This document shows, one piece after another, positions 7,556 to 57,834 of a stretch of 64,000 nt of DNA. The notes under the pieces are model-generated. The model saw only the letters and a list, made by a program, of their open reading frames with translations. It was not told where the DNA came from and searched no databases. The number at the start of each line of letters is the position of its first letter. Position 1 is the stretch's first letter. Both the position numbers and the translations under genes were made by a program. This DNA comes from Eledone cirrhosa (taxonomy: Eukaryota): positions 391,096,001-391,160,000 of the forward strand of contig OZ024740.1 of NCBI GenBank assembly GCA_964016885.1, written 5' to 3'.

Positions 7556-9282
<1,727 letters not shown>

Positions 9283-17254: not shown

Positions 17255-20200
17255 CTGAAACATAAATAAAAGGAGTTTACAAACAAATGCTGACTGGTTG
17301 GTTGATTTTGTTAGCATGTTTAACTCTTTAGCATTTACATTATATTTACTATTGTATTTTAAAGGTAAACACTTTATTTCACATAATATCGAATCTACGA
17401 GATTTTGATATTTATTTTGAGAAACAATAACTTAACATAAGTATGAGCAGCCAGTTATGGCCAGTTTAAATGCTAAAGGGTTAAATATATACAAATGGAA
17501 ATATATATAATTTAATATGGTAGTGCAGGTGTTATAACATACATCCAGCCCACTCTGTAAAATGGTAGTACTGGCATCATGATAAAAACACATCCCACCC
17601 TTTAAAATGGTAGTCCCAGTGCCATGATAAGATGCACCCAGTACACTCTGTAAAGTACTAGTTCCAGTGCAACAATAAATCCACTCAGTACACTCATTAA
17701 AGTGGTAGTACAGATGCCATAAAATGCACCCAATACACTCAATAAAGTGGTAGTGCCATGATAAAATATTTGCAGCCCACTCATTGAAGTGGAAGTACTG
17801 ATGCCATTTTAAAACGCACCCAGCCCAAACCATAAAGTGGTAATGCGAATGCTATCATAAAATGCACTCAGTACACTCTTTTCCATGCATTGTTTCACAT
17901 TTCATTTCTCTTCAGATAAGGGCAAAGCAATAAGTTCTTCAAACATTTACGGATGTAAGTATTCAGACATATCACTATTGTCATATTCTAGAGTCTCTGG
18001 GTGTTTCAATACACACCCTCATCCAGGACACATCAGTGTCATACCATAGAGACCCTGGGTGTTACAGGTCTTACAATACACACCCTCATCCAGCTGACCT
18101 GAATATAGGATACATCATTCATGTTGTATCCTGGAGTCACTGGATGTTTCAGTGACTCAAGTCAGTCAAGTCTCAGCCTTTATCCAAGTGGTATACATAT
18201 TACTGACCTCCACCTGTTACATCTTTCTTTCCCAAACCATCTGGGTGTTCTCTGCTCTATGTTGTTCCTGATGGCTCATATCCTGCTCACACACAACACC
18301 TACAGTTTTGTAGGCATTACTAAGAGAACAAGCTGCCAATTTCCATCTGTTCTTGCAAACACCCCCACCAACACTTAATACTTTCCTAAACTCTTAAAAT
18401 TTAGCATCTTCAATTCGTTATTGGTGCCAACCTTTACCCATAGTCATGAATCTTGGATAATGACTGAAACAGTACGATTGTGAATACAATCAACTGAAAT
18501 GAAATTCCTCCATAGGGTCTTTGGAGTAGTTACTCAATAGAGTGAATAGCTTGGAGATTAGCGAGTCACTCCAGGTAGAGCCATAACTTCTCCAGAGATC
18601 ACAGCGCTGATACTATGGACATGTGGTTAGAATGTCTCAGGAAAGAATCGCTGGACAGATTTTATGGGCAAAATCAACCAACAGGAGACCCCAGAGGTAG
18701 ACCCCAAGCAAGATGGTTGGATAACATCCATGAGCTTGGCTGGTCTCGCTTGGGGCTCCAGACAGATCAGCTGGAGATGGTTGCTTCTGACAGGACCTGC
18801 TGGATGGAGTATTTGAGGACACTGCCTCCATGACCTTTTCTGAAATAAGTGGGTGAAGAAGATTTAAATACTTACCTGTGAAATTTTTTGAAGAATTTCT
18901 GTGCTTGGTCACCAGTCCTAAATCGTATCAAAGCTTTGCGCTGGCTTTTCAGCAGTTGTAATGACTAAGAAAATAGAGAGTAAAAAAGAAACACAAAAAA
19001 TATTTATCAATATGTTGCTTAGCTGTTAACCCTTTTTTACTATATTTCTTATAAAAGACAATGCCTATCATTTTCAAATTTGGAGAGATTTAGTAATATA
19101 AGTTTCACATTACTAAGCTGGTGTTTGAAACATAACTTACAGCAAAGGTCTCAAATACATGACCTGCGAGCCACATGTGTCCCACAAACTACTTTCCTAT
19201 GGACCATAGCAGAACAATTTGCGTGACTAATTAATGAAAAATTGTCCCTCCTACATTTTGTACTAATTCACATATCCCACTTACTATCATAGGGAAGAAA
19301 GAAAGAAAGAGGAAAAAAAAAAATAAAAAGCAGCCTATCAGTTGTATTGTAGCATTGTTTAAGGTGGAAATCATGACCTCCCCATCATCTCACTTTTGGC
19401 CTGCTGTGCCTCTTCCCCAGGATGTAATGACTCTTTTGAGTTCTTGAGTTTGAGACACCTGATTTAAAGGTTCTTACATAAAATTATGTTGGAAGGTTTT
19501 AGATAAATATAAACATTTTAAAACAGTTTTGTACTTTAGAACCAGGGGTGGTTTTAAATGAAGATGTGAATGGAGAGAGAGAGAGATAGTGAGAAAGAGC
19601 ACCTAAAGGCTATTGTCAACAAAAGTGTAAATAAAAACCCTTCTGATATCTGAAATCACTCCTGGTTCTATGATACAAAACTGTTTTGTTTTAAACTGTA
19701 TATATTCATTAAAAAAAGAAAAAAACTTTCCATCATAATTTTATTTAAGAGCCTTTGTTATATTTAAAACAGTCTTAATAATGAGAAAATTATATTACAA
19801 ACTCTCTCCAAATTCTTGATTATTTGAAAAATGTCAGCCAGTGTCTTTCATTAGAACTATGGCCCAACAATAACAAGTGTTTTAAGGCCATTATCCCTGC
19901 TAAAGGGATTAACTTTGTGGACCTAATGTCATGCTTCTTCATTTTGCCCTATTGTATGTATCCCTCCTCACCAACTTCAATTTACTCCTTCATCATCTTT
20001 AGCCATGTCTTCCTTTTCCTCTATCTCTTTCCACGTTTATTTCCATCACTTCCCACAACTAGCTGCCTTCATCCTTCAACACACAGCCAAATCATCTCAT
20101 TCCATTTCTCTTCACGACATTCATCACCGGCTCTATTCCTCTCACCTAGTCACTTTCATCCTTTCTCAACACATGACCCAACCATCTCATTCCATTTCTC

Positions 20201-23200
20201 TTCACAACAATCATCATAGGCTCTATTCCTATCATCCTCCGCTATTCATTGTTTTTCTACTTCTTATCCACTTGACCATTCCCACTTCTGTTTTTCCAAT
20301 CTACTCTGCTGCTCCATGTCGATACAGTGTGGTCAAATGGTTAAGAAATTTGTGTCAGTCATTAAATTCTAGGTTTGTCCCCACTCTGAGGTGTTGTGGG
20401 AAAGTGTCATTGCATTACTCATAGCCTCAAGTCAACCCAAGCCTTGTGAGTGAAATTGAGTAGACGGAAACTGTTTGGAAGCCCAAAGGATGGACTGCAC
20501 CTATAATTAAATGGGCCAGCCTTGCTACACACTTTGTCATGATCTTAGAATTATGTTAAAAGTACACATGTCTGAGGAATGCTCAACCACTTACACATTA
20601 ATTTCATGAGTAGGCTACTCCATTGATCAAACAACTGGTATACTCATTGTCAAAACCAACAAAGACCTATTCCTCACTCCCATAAATCATGGCATTTAGA
20701 AATAAGGGCAGAAAAGGGTTAAATAGAGTAAATTACAAATGAATGTTTACCTCCACATGTCCACAAGACTTTGCCATTTGGTGCATAGTTCTCTCAGTTG
20801 TAGAAGAAGAAAGATTGTCAACAGCAATCATGGTAGCTTTCTTTATCTTTTGATTACCATCTCCATCAATACGCTAAATAAAAACAATATATAATTATAT
20901 ATATAGTAGGCATTTTCTCATAGAATTACTTAAAAAGGCAAGAAATACATCACATGTGGCAGGGTGTGATACTTTGCATCTGTATTTTATTTTAACTCTT
21001 TGCATACCAAACTATCTGAAATTGCTTCTGGTTTTACGATACAAAGTTTGTTTTTAAATGTTTATATTTATCTAAAAAAAAAACAACCTTACATGTAAGA
21101 ACTGTCGTTAAGTTACGCCCTAAACACCAGCTTAATAATGAGACAGTCAGTTATATTACTAATTCCTTCCAAATTCTCGATTATTTTCTAAATTATTTGA
21201 AAATCATAGGTAGTCTATTTCATTAGAAATAAGATAACGAAAGGGTTAAATATCTATTTTTAATCTAAAAACCATTCATCATAATTCTATGTAAAAACCT
21301 TTAAGATGAGTTCCAAATACAATAAGGAGAAAGTTATTTTACTAAATATTTCCAAATTCTTGTCCACCTTGTATGCTGATCCAGTGCCACAACAAAAGCA
21401 CTCAGTCCATCCTGGAAGGCGGTTATGTTGGTGACATAAATAAAAGCACCCAGTCCACTATGTAAAGTGGTCATGTTGGTGACAACTTGTAAGATGAAAG
21501 TGCTGGTGACAAGACAAAAAGCACACAGTCAAGGTGGTTGTGTTGGTGACATGGCAAAAAACACTCAGTCCATTCAGTTAGATGGTCGTTTCTAGGAAGA
21601 AGTCGTAGACACCAAGCCAAAATACAGATCTGTATGAACATGTTGACCTCAGGACTTGACTTGTCTCATAATGTGACAACCCATCTAACCTATGATGGTG
21701 TGGGAAAATGGACATTAAACAATGATGATGATGATGATGATTGCCATCATATATAATTACCCACTTAACAAGATTATATAATTTTGCTAAGTTTCTACAA
21801 TATTTATAATTCTATCAGATATAAATTAAGAATAAAAAAAAAAAATATATATATATATAAGCACTTACCCTGCCTAAATTAGACTGGTCTTTGTTCATAG
21901 CCATATTTCCAGGAACTTTCCTCATAGACATAGGTCCTTGTGGACGCTGGGGTGGAACTTTACCCCGGCCCATTCCAGGATTCTGGAATTTCATTTGTCT
22001 GTCTTGATTTGAAAACACATTAGACCCTTGCATGTTCATTTGCCGATTGCCTATATTGTTAGTGTTTTGAGGAGTACCCATAGATTGACCCCCGACATTG
22101 GACTGGCTAACTTTCCTTACAAGAACCTTTTTAGCACTAGCAGTAGGTTGGCCCTTGCTAGTTACTGAACTCTTAATAACCTTTTTCAGGATTAGACGAG
22201 TTTTCTTCATTATTTCCTGCTTGGGAATGTTACCGTCCAATTGTTGGGAGAAATCTGGTGGTCCAGACCCCTGAGGAGGAAGCATAGACATCAGATGTCC
22301 CCCTCTACCAGGCTGCATTCCTCTGCCACGTGACATCATACCACGCAAACCACCTCGGCCTTGAGGCATTAAATGTCGTTGAGGATTCGAGGGATGCATA
22401 AAGCGCTGTTGTTGAGGGCAAATGGGCCTAAGCTGATCTTGTGGCATACGAGACTGATTAGGTGGACCAAGAAGGCGGGGTTGACCACGCATTGGCCTAA
22501 GTGCTCCCTGAGGTCCAAAATGTCGAAGTCCTGGCCGCATCGAAGGTCTTAAACCAGATGGTGAGGGATGCCTGAAAACACCAGGAGCCTGTTGCCTCAT
22601 ACCAACTGGCATGTGTGGTCGGAGAGGTCCTTGGTTTTGCCCAGGTCTTATTGGGCTGCGTAAACCCATTGGCCTTTGAGGACCTTGGGTTGGAGATTGA
22701 GGGTAGTTTAATAATTGTCCTTCAAAGTTTACATTATGCATTTGAGCTTGAGCATTTGGTGATGGCATACGGGGTTGCCCACAAAACTGCATTCGAGGGT
22801 TAAATAGTTTCATTTTTCCTCCACGCATAGGCCGTAAATAAGAGCCTCCATATTGTGGAGGTATAAACCCTCCTCCTTGGTTTGATTGTTGATTAAACTT
22901 AGAAATTAAGTTCTCATTACTACTTCTAGTCTGCTGGTCACCATGTTGCTCCTCTCCTGTCTTCTGTTCACTCTCTTTAGATATCATATCACGCTTGTTT
23001 TTCTTAAGTGTTGATATAGACTGGAATTGTTGATGTGGTGGGATATACTGCTTCTGGTAGAAATTCTTCTCTTCTTCAGATAGAATCACATTCCCACCAG
23101 ATTGTTGTTGATGGCGTTCAGACAATGCCTGATTAGTCTGTTGCCGAGAGTCCATCTTGTCTTTGTCTGGTTTTCCTGAAACACATGTTTTCGCCTGTTT

Positions 23201-26200
23201 GGCACCTTTGCCATGAAACTGCTGCTGTGAAGTGTTCTTAGTTGTTCCATCTACAACTGGACTACTCTGTAATGGTCTTTTACCCAAAAACTGTTGCTTC
23301 TTCCCAGCTTGTGGTTGTGACTGATATGACGTTATGGCTTTGTTAACTGCTCCAACCTTTTTCTTTGGTAAGGCTTCCAGTATATGAGCCTTCTGTTCTT
23401 CAGTTACATCAGCCAGTGTCAGACCTGGTCAATTGAAAACAAAGACAAAAAATAAGATTCAATACATGTAAATGAAGTTACTGATTATTTACACCAGTAG
23501 CTCACAAACTTCTCTCTACCAATAACCTCTTTAACCCACCATAATTACTTCCCTCCCAGACTGTTAAACAGCAAGAATAACAAAAAAACTTACAGAAGAA
23601 TAGATATCCAATAGTGTGTGTGTGTATTATGTTTTTAATAGAAAAGTTGAAATTGTTATATAGTGATATTAATAATCAAAAAAGAAATATGTTTAAGCTT
23701 AAAGATGAATGGATACCCAATAGAGTATATTATGTTTATAAGTACTTGAAATTTTGAACTTAGTTCATGGTGGTAATGTTGTAAAAGTGTTGTAAATCAT
23801 TGCCAAAATTCCAAAATTCAAAACCTACTTCCAACCTACTTGAGCATGTAAAGCAGGCATAAAATGATGATGATAAAAAATCTATGATCAAAACAAAATT
23901 TGTTAAAACAATTGACACTGTTGTTAAGTAAATTTATTTGGTGCCATATTTCTATAAATGTTTTCTAATCTAAATTTTTAATACCATGTGTATCCTGGTT
24001 TTTAGATTAGGCACACTGTATCCCTGCATGATGTTAGAAAGAACTGATGTCAGGAAGGGCATTGGCTGTTAAACGCAAGGCAAGTTTCTTTAACCTTGGA
24101 TTAACAAATGCCTTGAGTGAATTTAACAGATGGAAACGATATGAAGCCTGTCATATATGTGTATGCATGTTGTCAGAAATACAATATTGACACCTCTTAT
24201 AAAATCTGTGGTAACAGTTGTTTATTTAGCTATACCTAATATGAGAAGAAAGCAAAACAATATACAAGACTTTAATGTACCAGGTTCAGTTAACACAACA
24301 CAGTATACAAGACTGTAATTTACCTTGTTCAATTAACACAACACAATATAAAAGACTGTAATGTACCTTGTTCAGTTAACACAACACATTATAAAAGACT
24401 GTAATGTACCTTGTTCAGTTAATACAACACAGTGTAAAAGACTGCAATGTACCTTGTTCAGTTAACACAATATACAAGACAGTAACGTACCAGGTTCAGT
24501 TAACACAACACAATATACAAGACTGTAATGTACCAGGCTCAGTTAATACAACACAATATACAAGACTGTAATGTACCAGGTTCAGTTAACACAACACAAT
24601 ATACAAGACTGTAATGTACCAGGTTCAGTTAACACAACACAGTAAACAAGACTGTAATGTACCAGGTTCAGTTAACACAACACAGTATACAAGACTGTAA
24701 TGTACCAGGTTCAGTTAATACAACACAGTATACAAGACTGTAATGTACCAGGTTCAGTTAATACAACACAATATACAAGACTAATGTACCAAGTTCAGTT
24801 AACACAACACAGTATGCAAGACTGAAATGTACCAGGTTCAGTTAACACAACACAATATACAAGACTGTAATGTACCAGGTTCAGTTACACAACACAATAT
24901 ACAAGACTAATGTACCTTGTTCAGTTAACACAATATACAAGACTGTAATATAACTTGTTCAGTTAACACAACACAGTATACAAGACTGTAATGTACCAGG
25001 TTCAGTTAACACAACACAATATTCAAGACTGTAATGTACCAGATTCAGTTAACAGAACACAATATACAAGACTGTAAAGTACCAGGTTCAGTTAACACAA
25101 CACAATATACAAGACTGTAATGTACCAGGTTCAGTTAATACAACACAGTATACAAGACTGTAATGTACCAGGTTCAGTTAACACAACACAATATACAAGA
25201 CTGTAATGTACCAGGTTCAGTTAACACAACACAATATACAAGACTGTAATGTACCAGGTTCAGTTAACACAACACAATATACAAGACTGTAATGTACCAG
25301 GTTCAGTTAACACAACACAGTATACAAGACTGTAATGTACCAGGTTCAGTTAATACAACACAGTATACAAGACTGTAATGTACCAGATTCAGTTAACACA
25401 ACACAGTATACAAGACTGTAATGTACCAGGTTCAGTTAATACAACACAATATACAAGACTAATGTACCAGGTTCAGTTAATACAACACAATATACAAGAC
25501 TAATGTACCCGGTTCAGTTAACACAACACAATATACAAGACTGTAATGTACCAGGTTCAGTTAATACAACACAGTATACAAGACTGTAATGTACCAGGTT
25601 CAGTTAATACAACACAATATACAAGACTGTAATGTACCAGGTTCAGTTAACACAACACAGTATACAAGACTGTAACGTACCAGGTTCAGTTAACACAACA
25701 CAATATACAAGACTGTAATGTACCAGGTTCAGTTAACACAACACAGTATACAAGACTGTAATGTACCAGGTTCAGTTAATACAACACAATATACAAGACT
25801 AATGTACCAAGTTCAGTTAACACAACACAGTATACAAGATTGTAATGTACCAGGTTCAGTTAACACAACACAATATACAACACAGTAAAGTACCAGGTTC
25901 AGTTAACACAACACAGTATACAAGACTGTAATGTACCAGGTTCAGTTAACACAACACAATATACAAGACTGTAATGTACCAGGTTCAGTTAACACAACAC
26001 AATATACAACACAGTAAAGTACCAGGTTCAGTTAACACAACACAGTATACAAGACTAATGTACCAGGTTCAGTTAACACAACACAATATACAAGACTGTA
26101 ATGTACCAGGTTCAGTTAATACAACACAGTATACAAGACTGTAATGTACCAGGTTCAGTTAACACAATATACAAGACTGTAATGTACCAGGTTCAGTTAA

Positions 26201-29200
26201 CACAACACAATATACAAGACTGTAATGTACCAGGTTCAGTTAACACAACACAATATACAAGACTGTAACGTACCAGGTTCAGTTAACACAACACAGTATA
26301 CAAGACTGTAATGTACCAGGTTCAGTTAACACAAAACAATATACAAGACTGTAATGTACCAGGTTCAGTTAACACAACACAATATACAACACAGTAAAGT
26401 ACCAGGTTCAGTTAACACAACACAGTATACAAGACTAATGTACCAGGTTCAGTTAACACAACACAATATACAAGACTGTAATGTACCAGGTTCAGTTAAT
26501 ACAACACAGTATACAAGACTGTAATGTACCAGGTTCAGTTAACACAATATACAAGACTGTAATGTACCAGGTTCAGTTAACACAACACAGTATACAAGAC
26601 TGTAACGTACCAGGTTCAGTTAACACAACACAATATACAAGACTGTCATGTACCAGGTTCAGTTAACACAACACAATATACAAGACTGTAACGTACCAGG
26701 TTCAGTTAATACAACACAGTATACAAGACTGTAACGTACCAGGTTCAGTTAACACAACACAATATACAAGACTGTAATGTACCAGATTCAGTTAACAGAA
26801 CACAATATACAAGACTGTAATGTACCAGGTTCAGTTAATACAACACAGTATACAAGACTGTAATGTACCAGGTTCAGTTAACACAACACAATATACAACA
26901 CAGTAAAGTACCAGGTTCAGTTAACACAACACAGTATACAAGACTGTAATGTACCAGGTTCAGTTAACACAACACAATATACAAGACTGTAATGTACCAG
27001 GTTCAGTTAACACAACACAATATACAACACAGTAAAGTACCAGGTTCAGTTAACACAACACAGTATACAAGACTAATGTACCAGGTTCAGTTAACACAAC
27101 ACAATATACAAGACTGTAATGTACCAGGTTCAGTTAATACAACACAGTATACAAGACTGTAATGTACCAGGTTCAGTTAACACAATATACAAGACTGTAA
27201 TGTACCAGGTTCAGTTAACACAACACAATATACAAGACTGTAATGTACCAGGTTCAGTTAACACAACACAATATACAAGACTGTAACGTACCAGGTTCAG
27301 TTAACACAACACAGTATACAAGACTGTAATGTACCAGGTTCAGTTAACACAAAACAATATACAAGACTGTAATGTACCAGGTTCAGTTAACACAACACAA
27401 TATACAACACAGTAAAGTACCAGGTTCAGTTAACACAACACAGTATACAAGACTAATGTACCAGGTTCAGTTAACACAACACAATATACAAGACTGTAAT
27501 GTACCAGGTTCAGTTAATACAACACAGTATACAAGACTGTAATGTACCAGGTTCAGTTAACACAATATACAAGACTGTAATGTACCAGGTTCAGTTAACA
27601 CAACACAGTATACAAGACTGTAACGTACCAGGTTCAGTTAACACAACACAATATACAAGACTGTCATGTACCAGGTTCAGTTAACACAACACAATATACA
27701 AGACTGTAACGTACCAGGTTCAGTTAATACAACACAGTATACAAGACTGTAACGTACCAGGTTCAGTTAACACAACACAATATACAAGACTGTAATGTAC
27801 CAGATTCAGTTAACAGAACACAATATACAAGACTGTAATGTACCAGGTTCAGTTAATACAACACAGTATACAAGACTGTAATGGACCAGGTTCAGTCAAC
27901 ACAACACAATATACAAGACAGTAACGTACCAGGTTCAGTTAACACAACACAATATACAAGACTGTAATGTACCAGGTTCAGTTAACACAACACAATATAC
28001 AAGACTTTAATGTACCAGGTTCAGTTAACACAACACAGTATACAAGACTGTAATGTACCAGGTTCAGTTAACACAACACAGTATACAAGACTTTAATATA
28101 CCAGGTTCAGTTAACACAACACAGTATACAAGACTTTAATATACCAGGTTCAGTTAACACAACACAGTATACAAGACTGTAATGTACCAGGTTCAGTTAA
28201 CACAACACAGTATACAAGACTGTAAAGTACCAGGTTCAGTTAACACAACACAGTAAACAAGACTGTAATGTACCTGGTTCAGTTAACACAACACAGTATA
28301 CAAGACTGTAATGTACCAGCTTCAGTTAACACAACACAATATACAAGACTTTAATATACCAGGTTCAGTTAACACAACACGGTATACAAGACTGTAATGT
28401 ACCAGGTTCAGTTAATACAACACAGTATACAAGACTGTAATGTACCAGGTTCAGTTAATACAACACAATACAGTATACAAGACTGTAATGTACCAGGTTC
28501 AGTTAATACAACACAGTATACAAGACTGTAATGTACCAGGTTCAGTTAACACAACACAATATACAAGACTGTAATGTACCTGGTTCAGTTAACACAACAC
28601 AATATACAAGACTGTAACGTACCAGGTTCAGTTAACACAACACAGTATACAAGACTGTAATGTACCAGATTCAGTTAATACAACACAGTATACAAGACTG
28701 TAATGTACCAGGTTCAGTTAACACAACACAATATACAAGACTGTAATGTACCAGGTTCAGTTAATACAACACAATATACAAGACTGTAACGTACCAGGTT
28801 CAGTTAACACAACACAGTATACAAGACTGTAATGTACCAGGTTCAGTTAACACAACACAATATACAAAACTGTAATGTACCAGGTTCAGTTAATACAACA
28901 CAATATACAAGACTAACGTACCAGGTTCAGTTAACACAACACAATATACAAGACTGTAATGTACCAGGTTCAGTTAATACAACACAGTATACAAGACTGT
29001 AATGTACCAGGTTCAGTTAATACAACACAACACAGTATACAAGACTGTAATGTACCTGGTTCAGTTAACACAACACAATATACAAGACTGTAACGTACCA
29101 GGTTCAGTTAATATAACACAGTATACAAGACTGTAATGTACCTCGTTCAGTTAACACAACACAATATACAAGACTGTAATGTACCAGGTTCAGTTAACAC

Positions 29201-32200
29201 AACACAATATACAAGACTGTAAAGTACTAGGTTCAGTTAACACAACACAGTATACAAGACTGTAATGTACCAGGTTCAGTTAACACAACACAGTATCCAA
29301 GACTAATGTACCAGGTTCGGTTAACACAATACAGTAAACAAGACTGTAATGTACCAGGCTCAGTTAACACAACACAGTATACAAGACTGTAATGTACCAG
29401 GTTCAGTTAACACAACACAGTATACAAGACTTTAATGTACCAGGTTCAGTTAACACAACACAGTATACAAGACTGTAATGTACCTGGTTCAGTTAACACA
29501 ACACAATATACAAGACTGTAATGTACCAGGTTCAGTTAACACAACACAATATACAAGACTGAAATGTACCAGGTTCAGTTAACACAACACAGTATACAAG
29601 ACTGTAATGTACCAGGTTCAGTTAACACAACACAATATACAAGACTGTAATGTAGCTGGTTCAGTTAACACAACACAATATACAAGACTTTAATATACCA
29701 GGTTCAGTTAACACAACACAGTATACAAGACTGTAATGTACCAGGTTCAGTTAACACAACACAGTATACAAGACTTTAATATACCAGGTTCAGTTAACAC
29801 AACACAGTATACAAGACTGTAATGTACCAGGTTCAGTTAACACAACACAGTATACAAGACTGTAAAGTACCAGGTTCAGTTAACACAACACAGTAAACAA
29901 GACTGTAATGTACCTGGTTCAGTTAACACAACACAGTATACAAGACTGTAATGTACCAGCTTCAGTTAACACAACACAATATACAAGACTTTAATATACC
30001 AGGTTCAGTTAACACAACACAGTATACAAGACTGTAATGTACCAGGTTCAGTTAATACAACACAGTATACAAGACTGTAATGTACCAGGTTCAGTTAATA
30101 CAACACAATACAGTATACAAGACTGTAATGTACCAGGTTCAGTTAATACAACACAGTATACAAGACTGTAATGTACCAGGTTCCGTTAACACAACACAAT
30201 ATACAAGACTGTCATGTACCAGGTTCAGTTACACAACACAGTATACAAGACTGTAATGTACCAGGTTCAGTTAACACAACACAGTATACAAGACTGTAAT
30301 GTACCAGGTTCAGTTAATACAACACAGTATACAAGACTGTAATGTACCAGGTTCAGTTAACACAACACAATATACAAGACTGTAATGTACCAGGTTCAGT
30401 TAATACAACACAGTATACAAGACTGTAATGTACCTGGTTCAGTTAACACAACACAATATATAAGACTGTAATGTACCTGGTTCAGTTAACACAACACAAT
30501 ATACAAGACTGTAACGTACCAGGTTCAGTTAACACAACACAGTATACAAGACTGTAATGTACCAGGTTCAGTTAATACAACACAGTATACAAGACTGTAA
30601 TGTACCAGGTTCAGTTAACACAACACAATATACAAGACTGTAATGTACCTGGTTCAGTTAACACAACACAATATACAAGACTGTAACGTACCAGGTTCAG
30701 TTAACACAACACAGTATACAAGACTGTCATGTACCAGGTTCAGTTAATACAACACAGTATACAAGACTGTAATGTACCAGGTTCAGTTAACACAACACAA
30801 TATACAAGACTGTAATGTACCAGGTTCAGTTAATACAACACAATATACAAGACTGTAACGTACCAGGTTCAGTTAACACAACACAGTATACAAGACTGTA
30901 ATGTACCAGGTTCAGTTAACACAACACAATATACAAGACTGTAATGTACCAGGTTCAGTTAATACAACACAATATACAAGACTGTAACGTACCAGGTTCA
31001 GTTAACACAACACAATATACAAGACTGTAATGTACCAGGTTCAGTTAATACAACACAGTATACAAGACTGTAATGTACCAGGTTCAGTTAATACAACACA
31101 ACACAGTATACAAGACTGTAATGTACCAGGTTCAGTTAACACAACACAGTATACAAGACTGTAATGTACCTGGTTCAGTTAACACAACACAATATACAAG
31201 ACTGTAACGTACCAGGTTCAGTTAATATAACACAGTATACAAGACTGTAATGTACCAGGTTCAGTTAACACAACACAGTATACAAGACTAATGTACCAGG
31301 TTCGGTTAACACAATACAGTAAACAAGACTGTAATGTACCAGGCTCAGTTAACACAACACAGTATACAAGACTGTAATGTACCAGGTTCAGTTAACACAA
31401 CACAGTATACAAGACTTTAATGTACCAGGTTCAGTTAACACAACACAGTATACAAGACTGTAATGTAGCTGGTTCAGTTAACACAACACAATATACAAGA
31501 CTGTAATGTACCAGGTTCAGTTAACACAACACAATATACAAGACTGAAATGTACCAGGTTCAGTTAACACAACACAGTATACAAGACTGTAATGTACCTG
31601 GTTCAGTTAACACAACACAATATACAAGACTGTAATGTACCAGGTTCAGTTAATACAACACAGTATACAAGACTGTAATGTACCAGGTTCAGTTAACACA
31701 ACACAATATACAAGACTGTAATGTACCAGGTTCAGTTAACACAACACAGTATACAAGACTAATGTACCAGGTTCAGTTAACACAACACAGTATACAAGAC
31801 TGTAATGTACCAGGTTCAGTTAACACAACACAGTATACAAGACTGTAATGTACCAGGTTCAGTTAACACAACACAGTATACAAGACTGTAATGTACCAGG
31901 TTCAGTTAACACAACACAGTATACAAGACTGTAATGTACCAGGTTCAGTTAACACAACACAATATACAAGACTGTAATGTACTAGGTTCAGTTAATACAA
32001 CACAGTATACAATACTATACAAGACTAAAGTACCTTGTTCAGCTAATTTTTCATGTAAATCCTTCCTCCTTTGTTCAGCCTGAAGTAAACGTCGCAGTTC
32101 TTTACGACGGATCACTTCAGCCCTCATACGTTTCTGTTGCTCTAACTTTTCTCGTAACAACTTGGATTCTTCATCCTGAAATTATTTCAATAAACAAGGA

Positions 32201-35200
32201 AATATTGTTGAGGAATCATGGTTTTTAAAATTAACTATTTATGACATTTATAGAGATCTGACTACAGCAAGAGTCATGATTTGAATTATTCTTGTTGTAT
32301 CTTAACCTTTTAGTTAAGTCCCCTGCCTCTGCTGGTAACTATTTTTACAGATGAGTGAACTAGAGCAATGTGAAATCAAATGCTTTGCTCAAGGACAATG
32401 TGTCACTCAATCTAGAGAACAAACCCACAATCTGACAATCACAAGGACAACAATGTGCTACTCTAGAGAACAAACACACAATCTTACAATTACAAAATTA
32501 ATATCACAAGTTAATTTCATCTGATGCTCTATCGAATCTACTACCCTCCACCCATTTTGATTACAGTTTACAGACATGAAACTTGATATCTTTCAGCTTT
32601 GGAAGCTTAAAACAATCAGATTGAAGAATGAAGGCAAAATATTAAATAGAATTAAAAGCTGCAGCAAAGTTACTTTTCAATGCTTATTTTTATTTTAACA
32701 CAATTTCATTTGAGGTGTAGTGAAGGTGAGAGGCAAAGCCGGTGGTCATACCAAGTTCTCCAAGATTGATAAGATTGATACAGTTTAAGATGACTAGGAA
32801 GAAGATAGGGTCAATTTCTTCAAGAATACAGTATATACCATTGTGCTAACCAATACTGTGTGTGAATTTGGTAGATGGAAACAACAGAATCCTGTTGAAT
32901 ACATAGATATATATGTAACTATGTCTATGTGGTGTCTAGTAACTTAGTGGTTCAATAATAATTTTTAAAAAAGATCCATAAAATACCAGACTAAAATATA
33001 AGTACTGGATTCAATATGATTGACTAAAACTAAATCATGGCCAGTCTAATAAATGAAACAAATAAAAGAATAAGAGATTACTTAGCAAAATACTAATGAA
33101 AAGCTGCTAATTAGTTGAGAGAAAATGTTAAGAGATGAAATATGAGTTTCTTACATCAGACTGGGTGAGTTGCTTGAGATGAGTTGACACTTTCGGTATC
33201 TTGGGTGCTGGAGGATCATTGTCAGACATTAGTTTTACCTGGGGTAGTGTTGTTAACACTTTAATGTTTTTATTTTGTTGTGTCTGAATCTCTTGCCGGT
33301 TTCGTTTTGGTGATATCAGAGGGTTAACCCTGGAAAACATTTAATGAAACATTAACATAAAAGGTTCTGGATAAGTAATAAATTAAATGTATTGAAACAT
33401 TTCATGAAGTATTTATATTTTCTTTGACAAATATTGAACTGATGTTGTATAGTTAACAGGGATACAGGCATGAGTATGTAGTTAAAAAGGTCACAATTAT
33501 GAGGTCCCAGGCTCAATACCACAAATATGTCATTGATTAATGATTCGTGGTAAAAAAATTGATGTATTTCATTGGTTTGGAAGATAAAAAAATAAATCCA
33601 TGCTGCATAGTTGAAGACATTTCAAGAAGAGGATAGAAGTTTTCATTAAGTGGGGGTGATAGATTCCAAACCTGAAAGCATGGCCTAGAAACAAAGGGTC
33701 TTAAAGTCAACCTGACAAAGACTAAGGTCCTAGTAAGTAGAAGGGAAAACAGATCCGCAATCCCCTCAGGGAAATGGCCTTGCTCAGTGTAGGAAAGGTA
33801 GAAATTCTAACTACTATCCCAAATGCAAACTATGGATACACAAGAGATGTAATGAGATCTCAGGTAGTTTAGCTAAGAATATAGGTTTACATGTAGCCAT
33901 TGCAATGGAGCAGTAAGTCACAAACGACCACAAGAAACAAGCACTATCAAATTCTGGGAAGGTACAGTAAAAGTGGTAGACAGCTTTTGCTACCTAGGAG
34001 ACCAAATTAGCAGCGGATGTCGGTGTTCTGAAAGTATAGTAGCTAGAGTGAGGACAGGATGGAAGAAGTTCAGGGAGCTACTACCATTGTTAGCTACAAA
34101 AGGCTTTTCCCTCAAAATAAAAGGCAGACTGTACGACACAGGTATACGAGCAGCAATGTTGCATGGTAGTGAGGCTTGGGTACTGTGTGCATAGGACTTA
34201 CGACGATTGGAAAGAAATGAAGCTTGCATGCTTCAATGGATGTATAATTGTAATATACGTGAACAGCAAAGCATAAAGTGGTTGTAATGGCAACAGGACA
34301 AACAGTGCCAGCCCACACTGTAAGGTGTTCATGTAGGTGTCACAACAAAAAAGCACCGAGCCCACACTGAAAAGTGGTCGTGTAGGTGTCACAACAAAAA
34401 GCACCAAGCCCACACTGTAAAGTGGTCGTGTAGGTGTCACAACAAAAAGCACCCAGCCCACACTGTAAAGTGGCCATGTAGTGTCACAACAAAAAGCACC
34501 CAGTACTCACTGTAAATGTGGTTGGCATTAGGAAGGGCATCCAGCCATAGAAACCAAGCCCAAATCGGTTCTGTATGAGCAAGACATGATCATCTGAATT
34601 CAACTTGCCTCAAATAGGACAACCCATCTAACCCATGCTAGCATAGAAAATGCACATTAACCCTTTAGCATTCACATTAATTTGTCAAATGGCATGTTTA
34701 TCTGTTCACATTATTTGCAGTTAATCGTACTCAAGAGGGTTATGAATTTTATTTGTTTGTAATTTTCTTAATTTTCTATGTGCAGGCTTGAAATTTTGTC
34801 AGTAGATGTTTAAATATCAATAATTTACAATTATATAATTTTACCTGATATTTTTGGTTAAATTTGACTTTTATGGACAGGTGAAATTAATTAATAGGGG
34901 CATTTGAAGTATCAACCAGGTGCAAATACTGGTTTAATTTTAAATACGTTGTTTTCGCCATAGTACTTGATATATAAGGATCACTAAACCTTATATCAGT
35001 GCTCCAGTAATTCCAGTCTTGGAAATTGTTTTATACCGAACATAATATTTACGGTAAAAAATGCTTGCATTTCCGCAGCCTCTGTTGGTCGCCATAACAG
35101 ATCGGGTTTTCCTCGATTTGAAATCTGTTGTTGGGCATATCGATTAATCTCTTCTGCCACAACTTCGAATAAATTTTGTGGTAAAAAGAAAAAGAAATAA

Positions 35201-47200: not shown

Positions 47201-49955
47201 CAAGCAGAGCATCTTCATCAAGTTCTTCATCAGACTCTTCTTTTTCCTAAAAAGAAAAAAATATATATATATACATACATATATCATCATCACTATTTAA
47301 CACCCATTTTTCCATGCTAATGAAAAATATCCAAGAGTTCAAATTAAAATATAAATGATCAAAAAGTTAAATTTAATTAAGGTGTTTAGTAAAACAGAAT
47401 AGTCATTATTAAGCTGGTGTTTATAACAAAGGTCTTTACATAAAATTATCATAGAAATATTTTCATCACCTTTAATGTCTATTTTCCATGCTTGCATAGA
47501 GTAGATGGGTTGTCATGTTGAATCTAGACAAGCAGGCCAAATGTCTGTGTCTTGTTTATATGTTCCATTTTGGCATGATTTCAATAACTGGATGCTCTTC
47601 CAACAACTTCATGGCTTGTGCCAGGTCCGTTTCCTTGTGGTACCACCACTACACCACTTAAAGTGGACTGGGGCTATTTTTTGTGCCACCAGCACTACCA
47701 CTTTATAGTGTGGACAGGATGCTGTTTTTTGTGCCACTAGCATTACCACTTTCCAGGTTTGACTGGATGCATTTTATCGTAGCACCAGTACTTGAAAGAG
47801 TGAGCTGAGCTCAGCACATTCTTATTGATGTTGCAAAGGGCATCCAGTCAGAGAAAAAAAAAAGATGTGTATGAGCAAGACATGGTCATCTAACCTGACT
47901 AGTCTCAATGTGACAACCCATCTAACCCATGCATGGGAAACAGATGTTAAACAGTGATTGTGATCATGTATCAGCACTATCACATTCTGTTACATATAAA
48001 TATAAATATTTTAAATTAAAACAGTTTATAATCATAGATCCAGGGGGCAGTTTCAGGTGGTTTGGTATTTAAAAGTGGGTTAAAAGTGGAATAATAATTA
48101 CCTTAGAACTTTGAAATGCACTTATACCCAAGATGTCATCTTGCAACAGATCTTCATCACTAAATATATGAAAAAGAAAAAAAAAAAAATTACTCATTTA
48201 TAAACCATCAGAATCTTCCACCATCAACCCTCACTAGCAGGGAAAATGGACATTATATGATGATGATGAGTACTACCTGACAGTTAGGGATGTTGTCTAT
48301 TTCTTAAGTTTATTAGTGTGTGTGCCCGTGGGCAGCTAAAAATGCTGTATAGTATCAGTATTAAGTGGCTATTGTGTATGCTAAACATTTGTTTGTGATT
48401 ATGTAGAGGTCTCTGTTGGGTTAGTATGGAAGATTTGCTTTAATACAGATAATGTAGCGTTTAAGAGGACCTTTTTAACTCTGCTGAAAACGTAACTTCT
48501 CTAGTGCTGGTGCCACAATCAAGTGCAACCAGTACACACTGTAAAATGGTTGGCATTGAGAAAGGCATCAAGCTCTAGAGACCATGCTGAATATGGAACG
48601 TAAGAAAATGACATGGTTCTTTCATCCATCTAGTCTCAGACTTTTGCTTTAGCAAGAAAAATGGCCTTAAAATGCTTGTTGTGTATTGTATTTAGCCTTG
48701 TGGTCTCAGTAAACCTCGGACACAATGTCCAGTTTAACATCACAACTTTGTCCTTGGATGCCTTTAATGGTGCCCACTATATTTATTATAAACATCCTGG
48801 TTTGGCCTCTAGTTTTGAGGCTAACTCCCTCATATAAAGATATATGCAAGCCACTCTACAATATGTTTATGTATAATAAACATACATTTAGCCTCGCTAT
48901 CATCAGAGTAGTATATGCATTCATTTCAATGTTGTTACAATTCGTCAGCACTTGATTTACTTACACCTAGAGGCACAGAAATATTAAAAGGTCAAGAATG
49001 CTGACCTTCCCTGAGTCAGCAGTAAAAAAAAAACAAAAAAAAATAGTAACAGGATATTTTAACTAAGAAATAGCACTGATGGGTGAAAAATTATTTCAAT
49101 TTGTGGAATGTTAATAATGACAAAATTTAACAACATTTTTTTTCAAACTAAAAATAAACAACAATGCAACAAGAAAATTTAATAAATTTATAAATATATT
49201 TTTTAGAAATAGGTGAATTGAATGAAATTTGGAACAATCATACATTTTTTTACTGGTTTCAGTTATTAAACTGTGGCTATGCAAGGGCATAACTTTTACT
49301 GGTTACAGCCATTAAAATACAACCATGTTGGGGTACTGACGACTTCTACTGGTTTCAGTTATTAGACTGCAACGATGTTGGGGTACTGCCTTCTTTTACT
49401 GGTTTCAATCATTAGAGTGCAACCATGCTGGGACACTGCCTTCTTTTACTGGTTTCAGCCATTAGACTGTGGCCAAGATGGGGCACTGCCTTCTTTTACT
49501 GGCTTCAGTCACTAGACTGTGGCCATGCTGGGGCATTGCCTTATTGGTTTCAGTTATTAGACACTGATCATTTCTACAGTTGGAAGCCCTTCCTATCACC
49601 AAGGCCAACTTTGTCACACTGAATCACACTGACAATTATGTTTAGGGTACACACGTCTGTGGAATGTTCAACCACTTGAACGATAATTTCATGAGCAGGC
49701 TGTTCCATTGATCAAACACCAGGAACACTCAACACCCAAACCCATGTAGGTTCATTCCATTCTTCAAAGGGAACTGTAAGGATTAAGAATCATCCTCCTC
49801 ATCATCACCATCCATTTTTACATGCTAGCATGGGTTAGATGAGTTGTCCCGTTGTGAGACAAGCCAGATCAGATAACTGTGTCTTGCTCATACATATAAG
49901 ATGAAAGCACTTACCTGTCCCATGATGCTGCTGTTGGTCTGTTTTTCCGAGACAT
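17203..49955 (-). CDS. RBM33: RNA-binding protein 33 orthologue, full spliced CDS: 17 coding exons, ~1470 aa, C-terminal RRM
   Basis: Exons joined manually; every intron is GT-AG and phases match (total 4413 nt). Recognised RBM33 motifs occur in the expected order: N-terminal WDS-DEDLL and acidic SDEEL; GRFISER...DIPDTLEIS; RRGGRRG; KILINPHFRG; coiled coil EQQKRMRAEVIRRKELRR; C-terminal RRM ending FHRHMLDLSHINV. Confidence 0.92.
17320..17484. mobile_element. piggyBac-derived MITE (family 1)
   Basis: TTAA-C(T)CTTTAGCATTTA...TAAATGCTAAAGGG-TTAA. Confidence 0.85.
18390..18862 (+). mobile_element. RTE-clade LINE 3' fragment
   Basis: Degenerate translation HESWIM...EMKFL.RV...PRGRPQARWLD; the same tail recurs at ~39485-39535. 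Confidence 0.75.
18876..18964 (-). CDS. RBM33: RBM33 coding exon 16, RRM (SLQLLKSQRKALIRFRTGDQAQKFFKKFHR)
   Basis: CTTAG acceptor, AG|GTAAGT donor, 89 nt; resembles SLQMLPQQRKAIAKF...FHR. Confidence 0.93.
19143..19461. mobile_element. hAT (Charlie-like) MITE nested in a family 2 MITE
   Basis: Ends CAAAGGTCTCAAA...TTTGAGACACCTG; degenerate 8-bp TSD ACTTACAG/ATTTAAAG. Confidence 0.7.
19870..20320 (-). mobile_element. RTE LINE 3' fragment with internal duplication; related pieces at ~44030-44230 and ~46740-46935
   Basis: Same sequence family as 40150-40560 (GHVL...RGRGK.RKTW on the minus strand). Confidence 0.65.
20751..20873 (-). CDS. RBM33: RBM33 coding exon 15, RRM N-terminal half (MIAVDNLSSSTTERTMHQMAKSCGHVE)
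   Basis: TTTAG acceptor, GAG|GTAAAC donor, 123 nt; LSSSTT motif of the RBM33 RRM. Confidence 0.92.
20992..21249. mobile_element. TTAA-flanked MITE (family 2); further full or partial copies at 1-158, 7450-9443, ~19026-19560, ~19637-19860, ~45113, ~50180-50590, ~59335-60020 and ~60960
   Basis: TTAAC(C/T)CTTT...AAAGGGTTAA ends and a shared body (CTGGTTCTATGATACAAA...CATTAGAAAT). Confidence 0.75.
21869..23424 (-). CDS. RBM33: RBM33 coding exon 14, large Q/P/G/M/R-rich low-complexity exon
   Basis: ACCAG acceptor, AGG|GTAAGT donor, 1556 nt, open, phase 1 to 0; contains most of ORF 21815..23287. Confidence 0.9.
24257..32046. repeat. 43-bp tandem satellite, ~180 copies, in RBM33 intron 13
   Basis: Consensus ACAAGACTGTAATGTACCAGGTTCAGTTAACACAACACA(A/G)TAT repeated continuously, ending inside exon 13. 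Confidence 0.98.
32034..32175 (-). CDS. RBM33: RBM33 coding exon 13, coiled coil (DEESKLLREKLEQQKRMRAEVIRRKELRR...KLAEQ)
   Basis: TTTCAG acceptor, AAG|GTACTT donor, 142 nt; resembles RBM33 DEETRLYRLKIEEQKRLREEILKQKELRR. Confidence 0.92.
33155..33329 (-). CDS. RBM33: RBM33 coding exon 12 (VNPLISPKRNRQ...LTQSD)
   Basis: TTTCCAG acceptor, GAT|GTAAGA donor, 175 nt, phase 2 to 0. Confidence 0.83.
33650..34270 (+). mobile_element. RTE-clade LINE fragment (RT C-terminus with Cys-rich insertion)
   Basis: GLKVNLTKTKV...GKWPC...WIHKRC...VDSFCYLGD...ARVRTGWKKFRELLPLL...KGRLY...MLHGSEAW. Confidence 0.88.
34290..34660 (+). repeat. SINE-like element with internal ~48-bp tandem repeats; related copies at ~17500-17880, ~21380-21740 and ~47470-47790 (inverted)
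   Basis: Unit CACAACAAAAAGCACC..CCCACACTGTAAAGTGG x4-5, followed by the family tail CCCATCTAACCCATGC...GATGATGATG. Confidence 0.7.
34661..35711 (-). mobile_element. Internally deleted piggyBac transposon carrying the N-terminal transposase ORF (34996..35496)
   Basis: TTAA TSDs at 34657-60 and 35712-15, ends CCCTTTAG...CTAAAGGG. The ORF has an acidic N-terminus and PGBD-type motifs (TGP...ALDYFFFFLP...EINRYAQQ...WRPT...EMQAFF...MFG...P). The insertion splits a SINE-like tail. Confidence 0.9.
36080..36300 (-). mobile_element. Penelope-like reverse transcriptase fragment
   Basis: KMDLAYANIF and DELTAFISHINNT.LSLECTSTVSD resemble the PLE motifs MGP.YANIF and EL..F....N..HP.L.FT. Confidence 0.55.
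36626..36803 (-). mobile_element. tRNA-derived SINE; near-identical copies at 56532-56710 (-) and 63920-64000 (-, truncated), related copy at ~55546-55700 (+)
   Basis: A box TGGCAGTATCGGTAGA and B box GAGTTCAAATCC on the minus strand; multiple dispersed copies. Confidence 0.85.
36829..37022 (-). CDS. RBM33: RBM33 coding exon 11 (PSHQEMLSAQ...KYQRLR)
   Basis: TGTAG acceptor, CG|GTAAGT donor, 194 nt, phase 0 to 2. Confidence 0.83.
37335..37580. repeat. ~39-bp degenerate minisatellite
   Basis: GGTTTAGAATAGGTACACTGTATCC repeated about 6 times. Confidence 0.8.
38685..38910. repeat. 42-bp minisatellite (~5 copies) in RBM33 intron 10
   Basis: TTTATAAC recurs every 42 bp from ~38729 to ~38897. Confidence 0.85.
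39021..39373 (-). CDS. RBM33: RBM33 coding exon 10 (GAPQPIQSLAP...QVQPVQ)
   Basis: TTTCCAG acceptor, CAG|GTAACA donor, 353 nt; lies within ORF 38973..39455. Confidence 0.9.
39950..40057 (-). CDS. RBM33: RBM33 coding exon 9 (AAPQHQNLQAPPPP...PPQYS)
   Basis: AATAG acceptor, CTG|GTATTT donor, 108 nt, phase 1/1. Confidence 0.85.
40150..40560 (-). mobile_element. RTE LINE 3' fragment
   Basis: ORF 40139..40366: HVLRQDEIDWVRGVME...GSRGRRPRKTW. Confidence 0.75.
41456..41585 (-). CDS. RBM33: RBM33 coding exon 8 (TTYVQPNPADAWPP...QAYQ)
   Basis: AACAG acceptor, AAG|GTTAGT donor, 130 nt; P/Q-rich. Confidence 0.85.
43077..43891 (-). CDS. RBM33: RBM33 coding exon 7 (EISEEQQAQID...RRGGRRG...poly-Q/H/P...KILINPHFRG...PVSQQ)
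   Basis: TTTAG acceptor, CAG|GTATTT donor, 815 nt, phase 1 to 0; overlaps ORF 43008..43736. Confidence 0.92.
44540..44684 (-). CDS. RBM33: RBM33 coding exon 6 (DKTIKGFEESSESEDEEKGRGRFISER...DIPDTL)
   Basis: TTACAG acceptor, G|GTAATT donor, 145 nt; conserved RBM33 block. Confidence 0.92.
45796..45924 (-). CDS. RBM33: RBM33 coding exon 5 (DGNADHFAAS...QEEDYE)
   Basis: ACAG acceptor, GAG|GTATGT donor, 129 nt, open, phase 0/0. Confidence 0.8.
46516..46615 (-). CDS. RBM33: RBM33 coding exon 4 (VPSDADFEGEDVIEVADPSELDDFE...)
   Basis: TTTTAG acceptor, GAG|GTGAGG donor, 100 nt; lies within ORF 46468..46650. Confidence 0.87.
47044..47246 (-). CDS. RBM33: RBM33 coding exon 3 (EKEESDEELDEDALLGSDNE...EEYELLE)
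   Basis: Polypyrimidine-TAG acceptor, GA|GTAAGT donor, 203 nt; acidic motif resembles RBM33 SDEELNDDLLQSDNE. Confidence 0.88.
48102..48159 (-). CDS. RBM33: RBM33 coding exon 2 (SDEDLLQDDILGISAFQSSK)
   Basis: TTTAG acceptor, AAG|GTAATT donor, 58 nt, phase 2 to 0. Confidence 0.85.
49247..49562 (-). repeat. 50-bp tandem array of a SINE 3'-tail unit
   Basis: TTCTTTTACT at 49391, 49441 and 49491; about 6 copies. Confidence 0.85.
49915..49955 (-). CDS. RBM33: RBM33 coding exon 1 (MSRKNRPTAASWD); exon starts at 49999 with 5' UTR
   Basis: TTTCAG acceptor at 50000, in-frame stops upstream of the ATG, AG|GTAAGT donor, phase 2. Confidence 0.8.
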
Positions 49956-56874: not shown

Positions 56875-57160
56875 CAGTGTCCCAGCATGGCTACAGTCTA
56901 ATCACTGAGATAAGTAAAAGAAGGCAGTGCCCCAGCATGGCTCTAGTCAAATGACTGAAACCAGTCAAATAAGCTAGTGCCCCAGTATGGCTGCAATCCA
57001 ATGACTGAAACTAGTAAAAAAAGGCAGTGCCCCAGCATGGCTACAATCTAATGACTGAAACCAGTGAAAGGTGGCAGTGCCCCAGCATGGTCACAATCTA
57101 ATGACTGAAACCAGTAAAAGGTGTTCCAGCATGGTTGCTGTCTAATGACTGAAACCAATA
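56875..57160 (+). repeat. 50-bp tandem array, same unit as 49247-49562 in opposite orientation
   Basis: AGTGCCCCAG(C/T)ATGG recurs every 50 bp from ~56926 to ~57076. Confidence 0.85.
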
Positions 57161-57834
57161 AAGAAAAAAAGAATGTGAAATTATTAAATTTGCACCCTAT
57201 GTCAAAACTTTATGACAACAACTTTACAATAGTGAATATAATAACCATTATTTTAATTCTTAAAATATATAATTAAATAAAAAAAACTCTTTCTATAATT
57301 AAAGTTAATTAAATTTATTGTTTATTTAACTTGAATGCAAATGTGAACACATTTACATTCAAACAAAACACAATATGCAAATAGAGAGATTACATATACA
57401 AGAAGATGGGAGAATACATTATGTTTCAGCACATATCCTTTGTTGATGCCCCAGTCTCATTATCACTATACTATAAAGCAGTATGTAATTGCTGTGGGCC
57501 CACATCTTATGCTGTTTTGAACATATGTAGTCAGAAAATATATATACCATATATACTCGAATATAAGCTGATCCCATATTTTATGTCTGAGAAATTGGCA
57601 AAAATCCAAATCCTGTTTATAAGCTGAGGCAGGTATTTAACACATTATGCTTCAATGATGTAGTTTTGAAATTCTCATGAGCGAAGAATATAGAAACAAA
57701 TAGTATATACAATACTTAACAAATATATAAGATTAAATAGAAAGAAAAAAAGGAGAAACAAAAACGAAAATGACCATCAATTCACCACCAAGTGCAACAA
57801 TCAGTCACACATCATAAAGGTCAAGGGAATATTT

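What the first reader, a model, noticed from the sequence alone, without database searches (positions are those of the whole stretch)
24257..32046. 7.8-kb intronic satellite whose monomer is a copy of the gene's own exon-13/5' splice-site junction
Seen: on the transcribed strand exon 13 ends TTAGCTGAACAAG|GTACTTTAGTCTTGTAT, and the 43-bp unit reads TTAACTGAACCTG|GTACATTACAGTCTTGTAT...GTGTTGTG. The array is continuous with the real junction, so ~180 donor-like copies follow a non-consensus authentic donor. Inference: the satellite arose in place by tandem amplification of the splice junction. It may be neutral, or act as a decoy or regulatory splice-site array whose copy number tunes RBM33 splicing.
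Basis: partly seen in the sequence, partly recalled or inferred. Interest (0 to 1): 0.75.

Follow-up and report, generated by a model that had tools for sequence, protein, structure and literature searches.

The report
Splice-donor minisatellite in octopod RBM33
In an octopus-type genome the last 13 bases of one RBM33-like exon and its splice signal are repeated 181 times over 7.8 kb of the next intron, yet the one RNA assembly found is cut at the first signal, so this is likely a tolerated, ordinary example of a repeat type already known from human and lancelet genes.

Summary
Observation confirmed. A 43-bp array (24253-32046, 181 copies behind the real junction) fills 90% of intron 13 of an octopod RBM33-like gene; its unit is the last 13 exon bases plus the donor and intron start. 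It is single-locus (114 of 114 and 157 of 158 genome matches lie in it). Junction-like AAG|GTA copies survive only at the far edge, which supports growth in place. A spliced RNA contig joins the authentic donor (32033) to exon 14, and no RNA contig lies on the proximal copies. A relative about 4-5% diverged has the array with the same borders and its own variants. The architecture is known: human F7, CBS, IFI6, LMNB2, ABCA7 (up to about 427 units) and amphioxus 'mirages'. In F7 only the first donor is used, whatever the copy number. Arrays of 1 kb or more cover about 12% of sampled DNA here, so tens of donor-spanning arrays are expected by chance; the scan noted several on other DNA, this genome included. 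One detail: copy 2, the nearest competitor, is crippled in both species. Decoy or regulatory role unsupported. New member of a known kind; low interest.

The parts
32034..32175 (-). RBM33-like coding exon 13 (142 nt); its last 13 bases are the exonic part of the repeat unit
   Evidence: tblastn 46 of 48 residues with O. sinensis and Argonauta proteins; borders; RNA contig
32026..32036 (-). Authentic donor AAG|GTACTTTA (GT at 32033-32032); the site used
   Evidence: 1183-nt contig of run X4: letters 1-141 on 32172-32032, letters 138-1183 on 23426-22381; U1 duplex -5.6 kcal/mol
24253..32046 (-). 43-bp minisatellite, 181 copies behind the authentic junction, single locus
31975..31985 (-). Copy-2 pseudo-donor CTA|GTACATTA, 51 nt behind the real donor; G>A at -1; the only copy whose use would keep an open frame (+17 residues)
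   Evidence: duplex -1.6 kcal/mol; translation; in the relative the exon-anchored contig has also lost the G of GT (place 31982)
25859..27851 (-). Recent block duplication inside the array: 24-unit (1018 bp) lag with 23 consecutive identical units; 9-unit sub-blocks
   Evidence: 16 rare-variant matches at lag 24 against at most 6 in 200 shuffles
24289..24961 (-). Far edge holding all six copies that keep the exon's AAG (copies 166, 167, 178-181)
23425..24256 (-). Non-array rest of intron 13 (832 nt) with the acceptor
21869..23424 (-). RBM33-like coding exon 14
   Evidence: RNA contigs join it to exon 13 and exon 15

Best explanation
This is a single-locus minisatellite whose unit copies the end of RBM33-like exon 13 and its splice donor; it likely arose by one short tandem duplication across the junction, likely grew and was homogenised by slippage and unequal exchange, and is likely a tolerated passenger because the spliceosome takes the first donor. 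Shown: anatomy, single locus, use of the authentic donor in one RNA contig, presence in a relative, recent block duplication. Inferred: the founding duplication; that the copies stay silent because only the first has the whole exon upstream (first-site rule of F7) and because most carry A>T at -2; that rare use of copy 3 or later would give a stop codon and be degraded; that selection acted, at most, against the nearest competitor (copy 2).
For: Single locus: 114 of 114 exact 19-mer matches and 157 of 158 one-mismatch 20-mer matches in 3.0 Gb lie in the array; the one outside equals the reversed-pattern control. Exon end is older than the array's divergence: same residues in O. sinensis and Argonauta. 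All copies with the exon's AAG sit in the last 17 units, as for cluster edges left out of homogenisation in amphioxus mirages. RNA contig spliced at 32033 to 23424 with 0 other letters; RNA depth 0 in all 8 bins from 31775 to 32030. Relative B has both array borders in the same places and A at -3 in 5 of 5 contigs where this genome has C: turnover within each lineage. Base rate: 14 arrays of 1 kb or more in 59 stretches of 10 kb, 11.8% of bases; about 20-180 donor-spanning arrays expected by chance under assumed donor numbers. F7: only the upstream site used, unchanged with 1-12 monomers.
Against: [quoted passage not shown] The array has lasted across a 4-5% divergence. ABCA7 shows that such an array can alter splicing with length. 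The base-rate figure uses an assumed donor count and ignores selection.
Confidence: 0.8

Rival explanations
1. The array tunes RBM33 output: some transcripts would use a pseudo-donor (stop codon, decay) or an intronic polyadenylation signal, in proportion to copy number, as a self-limiting switch for an RNA-binding protein.
For: 17 of 181 copies match U1 at least as well as the real donor; use of copy 3 or later gives a stop; 10 copies carry ATTAAA with UGUA and GU-rich tracts around it. ABCA7 precedent: one unit retained, exon skipping rises with length. Array kept in a relative.
Against: Only the authentic junction seen; no RNA contig on the proximal copies. Nearest strong copy is 436 nt away. 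F7 copy number had no effect. No RNA structure beyond shuffles (z 0.11, -0.04, 0.66). The open extension to copy 2 is not conserved: the relative has a stop two codons into the intron (place 32027).
Confidence: 0.08
2. The 10 CAG|GT and 5 AAG|GT copies would act as recursive-splicing stepping stones, each regenerating a donor, so that the 8.6-kb intron is removed in steps.
For: 16 copies have AG|GT; a copy of a junction is formally acceptor plus donor.
Against: No pyrimidine tract before them (UG-rich), intron only 8.6 kb, positions follow block duplications. The mature RNA would look the same, so one search does not test it. No joint from the four far-edge AAG copies to exon 14 among the 15 joints shown (561 more were not shown).
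Confidence: 0.04
3. The unit came from a dispersed satellite or mobile element that landed at the exon end, and the likeness to the junction is chance or secondary; or the array length is an assembly artefact.
For: The genome holds dispersed 48-bp repeat families.
Against: No copy elsewhere beyond control level; 12 of 13 match to coding bases conserved in two other octopods; DNA contigs of runs X1 and X2 sum to depths up to about 1300 on array bins against 6-17 on the unique flank (these runs may be the assembly's source, and summed depth is no copy number).
Confidence: 0.03

Closest known systems
Human F7 intron 7 37-bp VNTR (Borensztajn et al. 2006, PMC1557585; abstract, introduction, parts 1 and 3 of 6 and searched passages read), with IFI6/6-16, CBS intron 13, LMNB2 and PDGF cases named in its introduction
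   Same: First monomer spans the exon-intron border; donor reiterated in the intron; most upstream site used.
   Different: 5-9 copies (10-25 in the others) against 181 here; F7 pseudo-sites are identical to the real one, here 164 of 181 are weaker; invertebrate host.
Human CBS 31-bp VNTR (Yang et al. 2000; title only, seen in the reference list of PMC1557585)
   Same: [quoted passage not shown]
   Different: 15-20 copies; PMC1557585 says two pseudo-sites are used in CBS; none seen used here.
Human ABCA7 intron 18 25-bp VNTR (De Roeck et al. 2018, PMC5954066; passages read)
   Same: Unit starts at the donor; alleles up to 10,678 bp (about 427 units), so the size here is within the known range.
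   Different: Unit begins with the GT rather than holding 13 exon bases; length affects splicing and disease risk, which is not shown here.
Amphioxus 'mirage' minisatellites (Adh3, globins BflGb6 and BflGb9; PMC3087553; passages read)
   Same: Tandem copies of exon-intron borders in an invertebrate, no disturbance of splicing, edge copies left out of homogenisation.
   Different: 3-6 units in BflGb6, longer units in the globins; here 181 units of 43 bp in a mollusc.

Membership tests
Junction-reiterating minisatellite (F7 type, mirage) | Head-to-tail repeat of minisatellite-size unit | tested here: met
   43 bp, 181 copies, 92%
Junction-reiterating minisatellite (F7 type, mirage) | First unit spans a real exon-intron border of the host gene | tested here: met
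   13 exon bases plus donor; border shown by homology and RNA contig
Junction-reiterating minisatellite (F7 type, mirage) | Splice signal reiterated in the copies | tested here: met
   178 of 181 keep GT; 16 have AG|GT
Junction-reiterating minisatellite (F7 type, mirage) | Locus-specific | tested here: met
Junction-reiterating minisatellite (F7 type, mirage) | Authentic (most upstream) site is the one mainly used | tested here: met
   one RNA contig of one sample; minor sites not excluded
Junction-reiterating minisatellite (F7 type, mirage) | Length differs between individuals (VNTR) | not testable with these tools
   RAD run X6 had no depth at the array edge; recent block duplication suggests instability
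Splicing-associated tandem repeat (ABCA7 type, spl-TR) | Repeat length correlates with isoform ratios | not testable with these tools
   needs paired genotypes and RNA
Splicing-associated tandem repeat (ABCA7 type, spl-TR) | Isoforms using a repeat donor exist | tested here: inconclusive
   none among X4 contigs on 31775-32030; contigs drop rare forms
Recursive-splicing sites | Pyrimidine tract + AG|GT with junction or lariat reads | tested here: inconclusive
   AG|GT in 16 copies but UG-rich, not pyrimidine-rich, upstream; no nascent RNA at hand
Dispersed satellite family | Unit found at many loci | tested here: not met

The most novel reading that the evidence does not exclude
The array is a copy-number rheostat for octopod RBM33: selection knocked out the nearest competing donor (copy 2, crippled in both species) but left distant strong donors and ten ATTAAA signals in UG-rich context, so that a length-dependent share of transcripts is diverted to decay or early 3' end formation.
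Probability: 0.07. Interest if true: 0.6.

Novelty: new member of a known kind. Interest (0 to 1): 0.2.

Why it matters
As it stands it adds a mollusc case to a known oddity and shows that the first-donor rule seems to hold against 181 pseudo-donors. Its best use is as one data point in a genome-wide test: octopod genomes hold many such arrays, and asking whether copy 2 is crippled more often than edge divergence predicts would measure selection against competing splice donors. A length-dependent effect on RBM33 would be a natural splicing rheostat, but nothing here shows one.

Tried and rejected
Pfam scan of four translated pieces gave nothing over cut-off, so the gene name rests on the source labels of P0001 and P0002. 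The run finder listed no holder on record as RNA; X4 was recognised as RNA only from its spliced contigs. RAD run X6 did not cover the array edge. Folding of three stretches was no better than shuffles: no structural masking of donors. Absence of strong copies among units 2-10 is not significant (p 0.40); copy 2 being among the six most crippled has p about 0.03, after the fact and not corrected for faster change at array edges. An in-frame 17-residue extension via copy 2 was rejected as a conserved feature because the relative has a stop right behind the donor. Relative's copy number from summed depth (up to 224 against about 16) hints at a shorter array but is no measure. The middle of the array was not examined with reads. 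Turri et al. 1995 was not held. Searches for 'cephalopod minisatellite intron splice' (2 papers, neither on this) and 'octopus genome intron satellite tandem repeats' (19 papers, 18 listed, none on this by title or abstract start) found no report of this locus; the CBS search found 0 papers; subscription journals are not covered. No look-alike stretch in other scanned genomes. One of 60 sample stretches did not exist, leaving 59.

Full report
Observation. Tandem Repeats Finder reports one large array in the window, 24253-32016, period 43, 181.4 copies, 92% matches. Read on the minus strand and split at a fixed anchor, it gives 182 units: the real junction and 181 copies, 157 of them 43 bp long, 67 distinct variants; mean pairwise difference among 156 full-length units is 5.5%. 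The exon-14 translation found two longer proteins, labelled RNA-binding protein 33-like from Octopus sinensis and Argonauta hians; mapped back they give 17 coding exons on the minus strand, the 13th ending at the array. Exon 13 is 32175-32034, the donor GT is at 32033-32032, exon 14 starts at 23424, and the array takes 7777 of the intron's 8609 nt. The host is therefore an octopod (inference from these labels and the 80% identity).

Origin in place. An exact 19-mer has 114 matches in the 3.0-Gb genome and 114 in the window; a second 20-mer with one mismatch has 158 in the genome and 157 in the array, the one outside equalling the reversed control; a 201-base search gave 53 matches, all in the array. 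The unit holds the last 13 exon bases: 144 copies match them at 10 of 13 and 5 copies at 12 of 13, and likeness stops there. Those bases encode residues shared with both other octopods, so the exon is the source and not the product (inference). All six copies that keep the exon's AAG lie among the last 17 units, the pattern of edge copies escaping homogenisation described for amphioxus mirages (PMC3087553, passages). Turnover is recent: a 24-unit block is duplicated with 23 consecutive identical units (16 rare-variant matches against at most 6 in 200 shuffles).

A relative. Run X5 (organism B) differs at 84 letters and 62 gap places over 1950 bases of exon 14 and at 7 listed places in exon 13, about 4-5%. 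One of its contigs runs from intron 12 through exon 13 into the repeat (31888-32444), and another runs from exon 14 through the unique intron part and ends in repeat letters, so both borders are shared. At -3 of the unit 5 of 5 B contigs have A where this genome has C, and no row shows a change at -2 (11 rows were not shown), so A>T at -2 is likely shared and A>C at -3 spread only here. The contig anchored on exon 13 (told by its depth) has lost the G of copy 2's GT and has a stop two codons into the intron (places 31982, 32027).

Splicing. Run X4 is not labelled, but its contigs join exons 15-14 and 14-13, so it is RNA. Its 1183-nt contig lies with letters 1-141 on 32172-32032 and 138-1183 on 23426-22381, 0 other letters; the four shared letters are the AGGT present at both intron ends. 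The authentic donor is used. X4 depth is 0 in all 8 bins from 31775 to 32030.

Donor strength. With the genome's own U1 5' end, the real donor pairs at -5.6 kcal/mol, third weakest of the gene's 16 homology-inferred donors. 178 of 181 copies keep GT; 164 pair less well (114 are CTG|GTACATTA, -4.1) and 17 as well or better, the nearest being copy 11, 436 nt away. The copies cannot be called dead, since the donors of exons 9 and 12 score -4.3. Use of copy 2 would add 17 residues in frame; use of copy 3 or later meets a stop. Copy 2 has G>A at -1 (-1.6 kcal/mol), among the six weakest copies (p about 0.03, after the fact), and it is crippled in B too, possibly by shared descent. In F7 the second unit is the one activated when the real donor is mutated, in ABCA7 the cryptic donor retains one unit, and the title of Yang et al. 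2000 reports a blocking substitution in the second CBS repeat (reference list). Mild selection against the nearest competitor is plausible but not shown. No structure beyond shuffles.

Base rate. In 59 stretches of 10 kb across 22 large contigs, 14 arrays of 1 kb or more (period 15-200) cover 11.8% of bases. Leaving out four arrays that fill their stretch and one that looks like a zinc-finger coding repeat, 15 array edges give about 38,000 arrays (21,000-63,000) genome-wide; with an assumed 100,000-200,000 donors and units of 30-43 bp, about 20-180 would span a donor by chance, ignoring selection. Earlier notes of this scan list donor- and acceptor-derived arrays in other genes of the same genome and in urchin, mussel, annelid and shark; these are unchecked and I did not test them.

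How it most likely works. A short duplication across the junction seeded a minisatellite (inferred); slippage and unequal exchange enlarged and homogenised it (inferred from block structure and lineage-specific variants); the spliceosome takes the first donor (shown for one contig), as in F7, where 1 to 12 monomers and stronger pseudo-sites short of a perfect match left the choice unchanged (PMC1557585). Confidence 0.8. Rivals: length-dependent regulation through decay or intronic polyadenylation (0.08; ten ATTAAA copies and the ABCA7 precedent keep it open), recursive stepping stones (0.04), outside origin or artefact (0.03).

Comparison and verdict. It meets the tested features of junction-reiterating minisatellites (F7, IFI6, CBS, LMNB2, PDGF as listed in PMC1557585; mirages in PMC3087553); length variation between animals could not be tested. 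Its size lies within the ABCA7 range (up to about 427 units, 10.7 kb). PMC10078293 (passages) shows that repeats tied to splicing are common in humans but gave no closer case; PMC9186391 on RBM33 in RNA export was seen as a listing only. No paper on this locus turned up; supplements were not read. New member of a known kind; interest 0.2.

Noticed in passing
window 31421, 29995, 29780, 29694, 29436, 28355, 28140, 28097, 28011, 24276 (minus strand): Ten array copies carry ATTAAA with UGUA before and a GU-rich tract behind, the layout of a polyadenylation signal (layout recalled, not from a call).
   Followed up: partly
window 32035-32032 and 23426-23423: Intron 13 has AGGT at both ends, and the acceptor context (GACCAG|GT) resembles the CAG|GT variant of the repeat unit; probably chance.
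   Followed up: no
window 36840-36828: The O. sinensis protein lacks two residues (LR) at the end of exon 11 that the Argonauta protein and this window have; an upstream AAG|GT six bases before the donor could be an alternative donor.
   Followed up: no
window 34308-34522, 47663-47775, 17603-17754; also L050, L062, L065, L071: A dispersed family of 45-48-bp tandem repeats with related units occurs in several introns and on other chromosomes; unrelated to the 43-bp array.
   Followed up: no
window 7643-9207: 1.5-kb degenerate AT microsatellite downstream of the gene.
   Followed up: no
G000:C1128 and G000:C2:180973544-180995099: U1 snRNA genes stand in tandem arrays with about 2.67-kb spacing; 42 matches scored.
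   Followed up: no
L015, L046, L053, L063, L067: Five of 59 sampled 10-kb stretches are wholly or almost wholly one tandem array; 12 of the 14 arrays of 1 kb or more were on the smaller chromosomes.
   Followed up: partly
window 49293-49542 and 56875-57162: Two arrays of a related 50-bp unit in opposite orientation, one in intron 1 and one about 7 kb upstream of the start codon.
   Followed up: no
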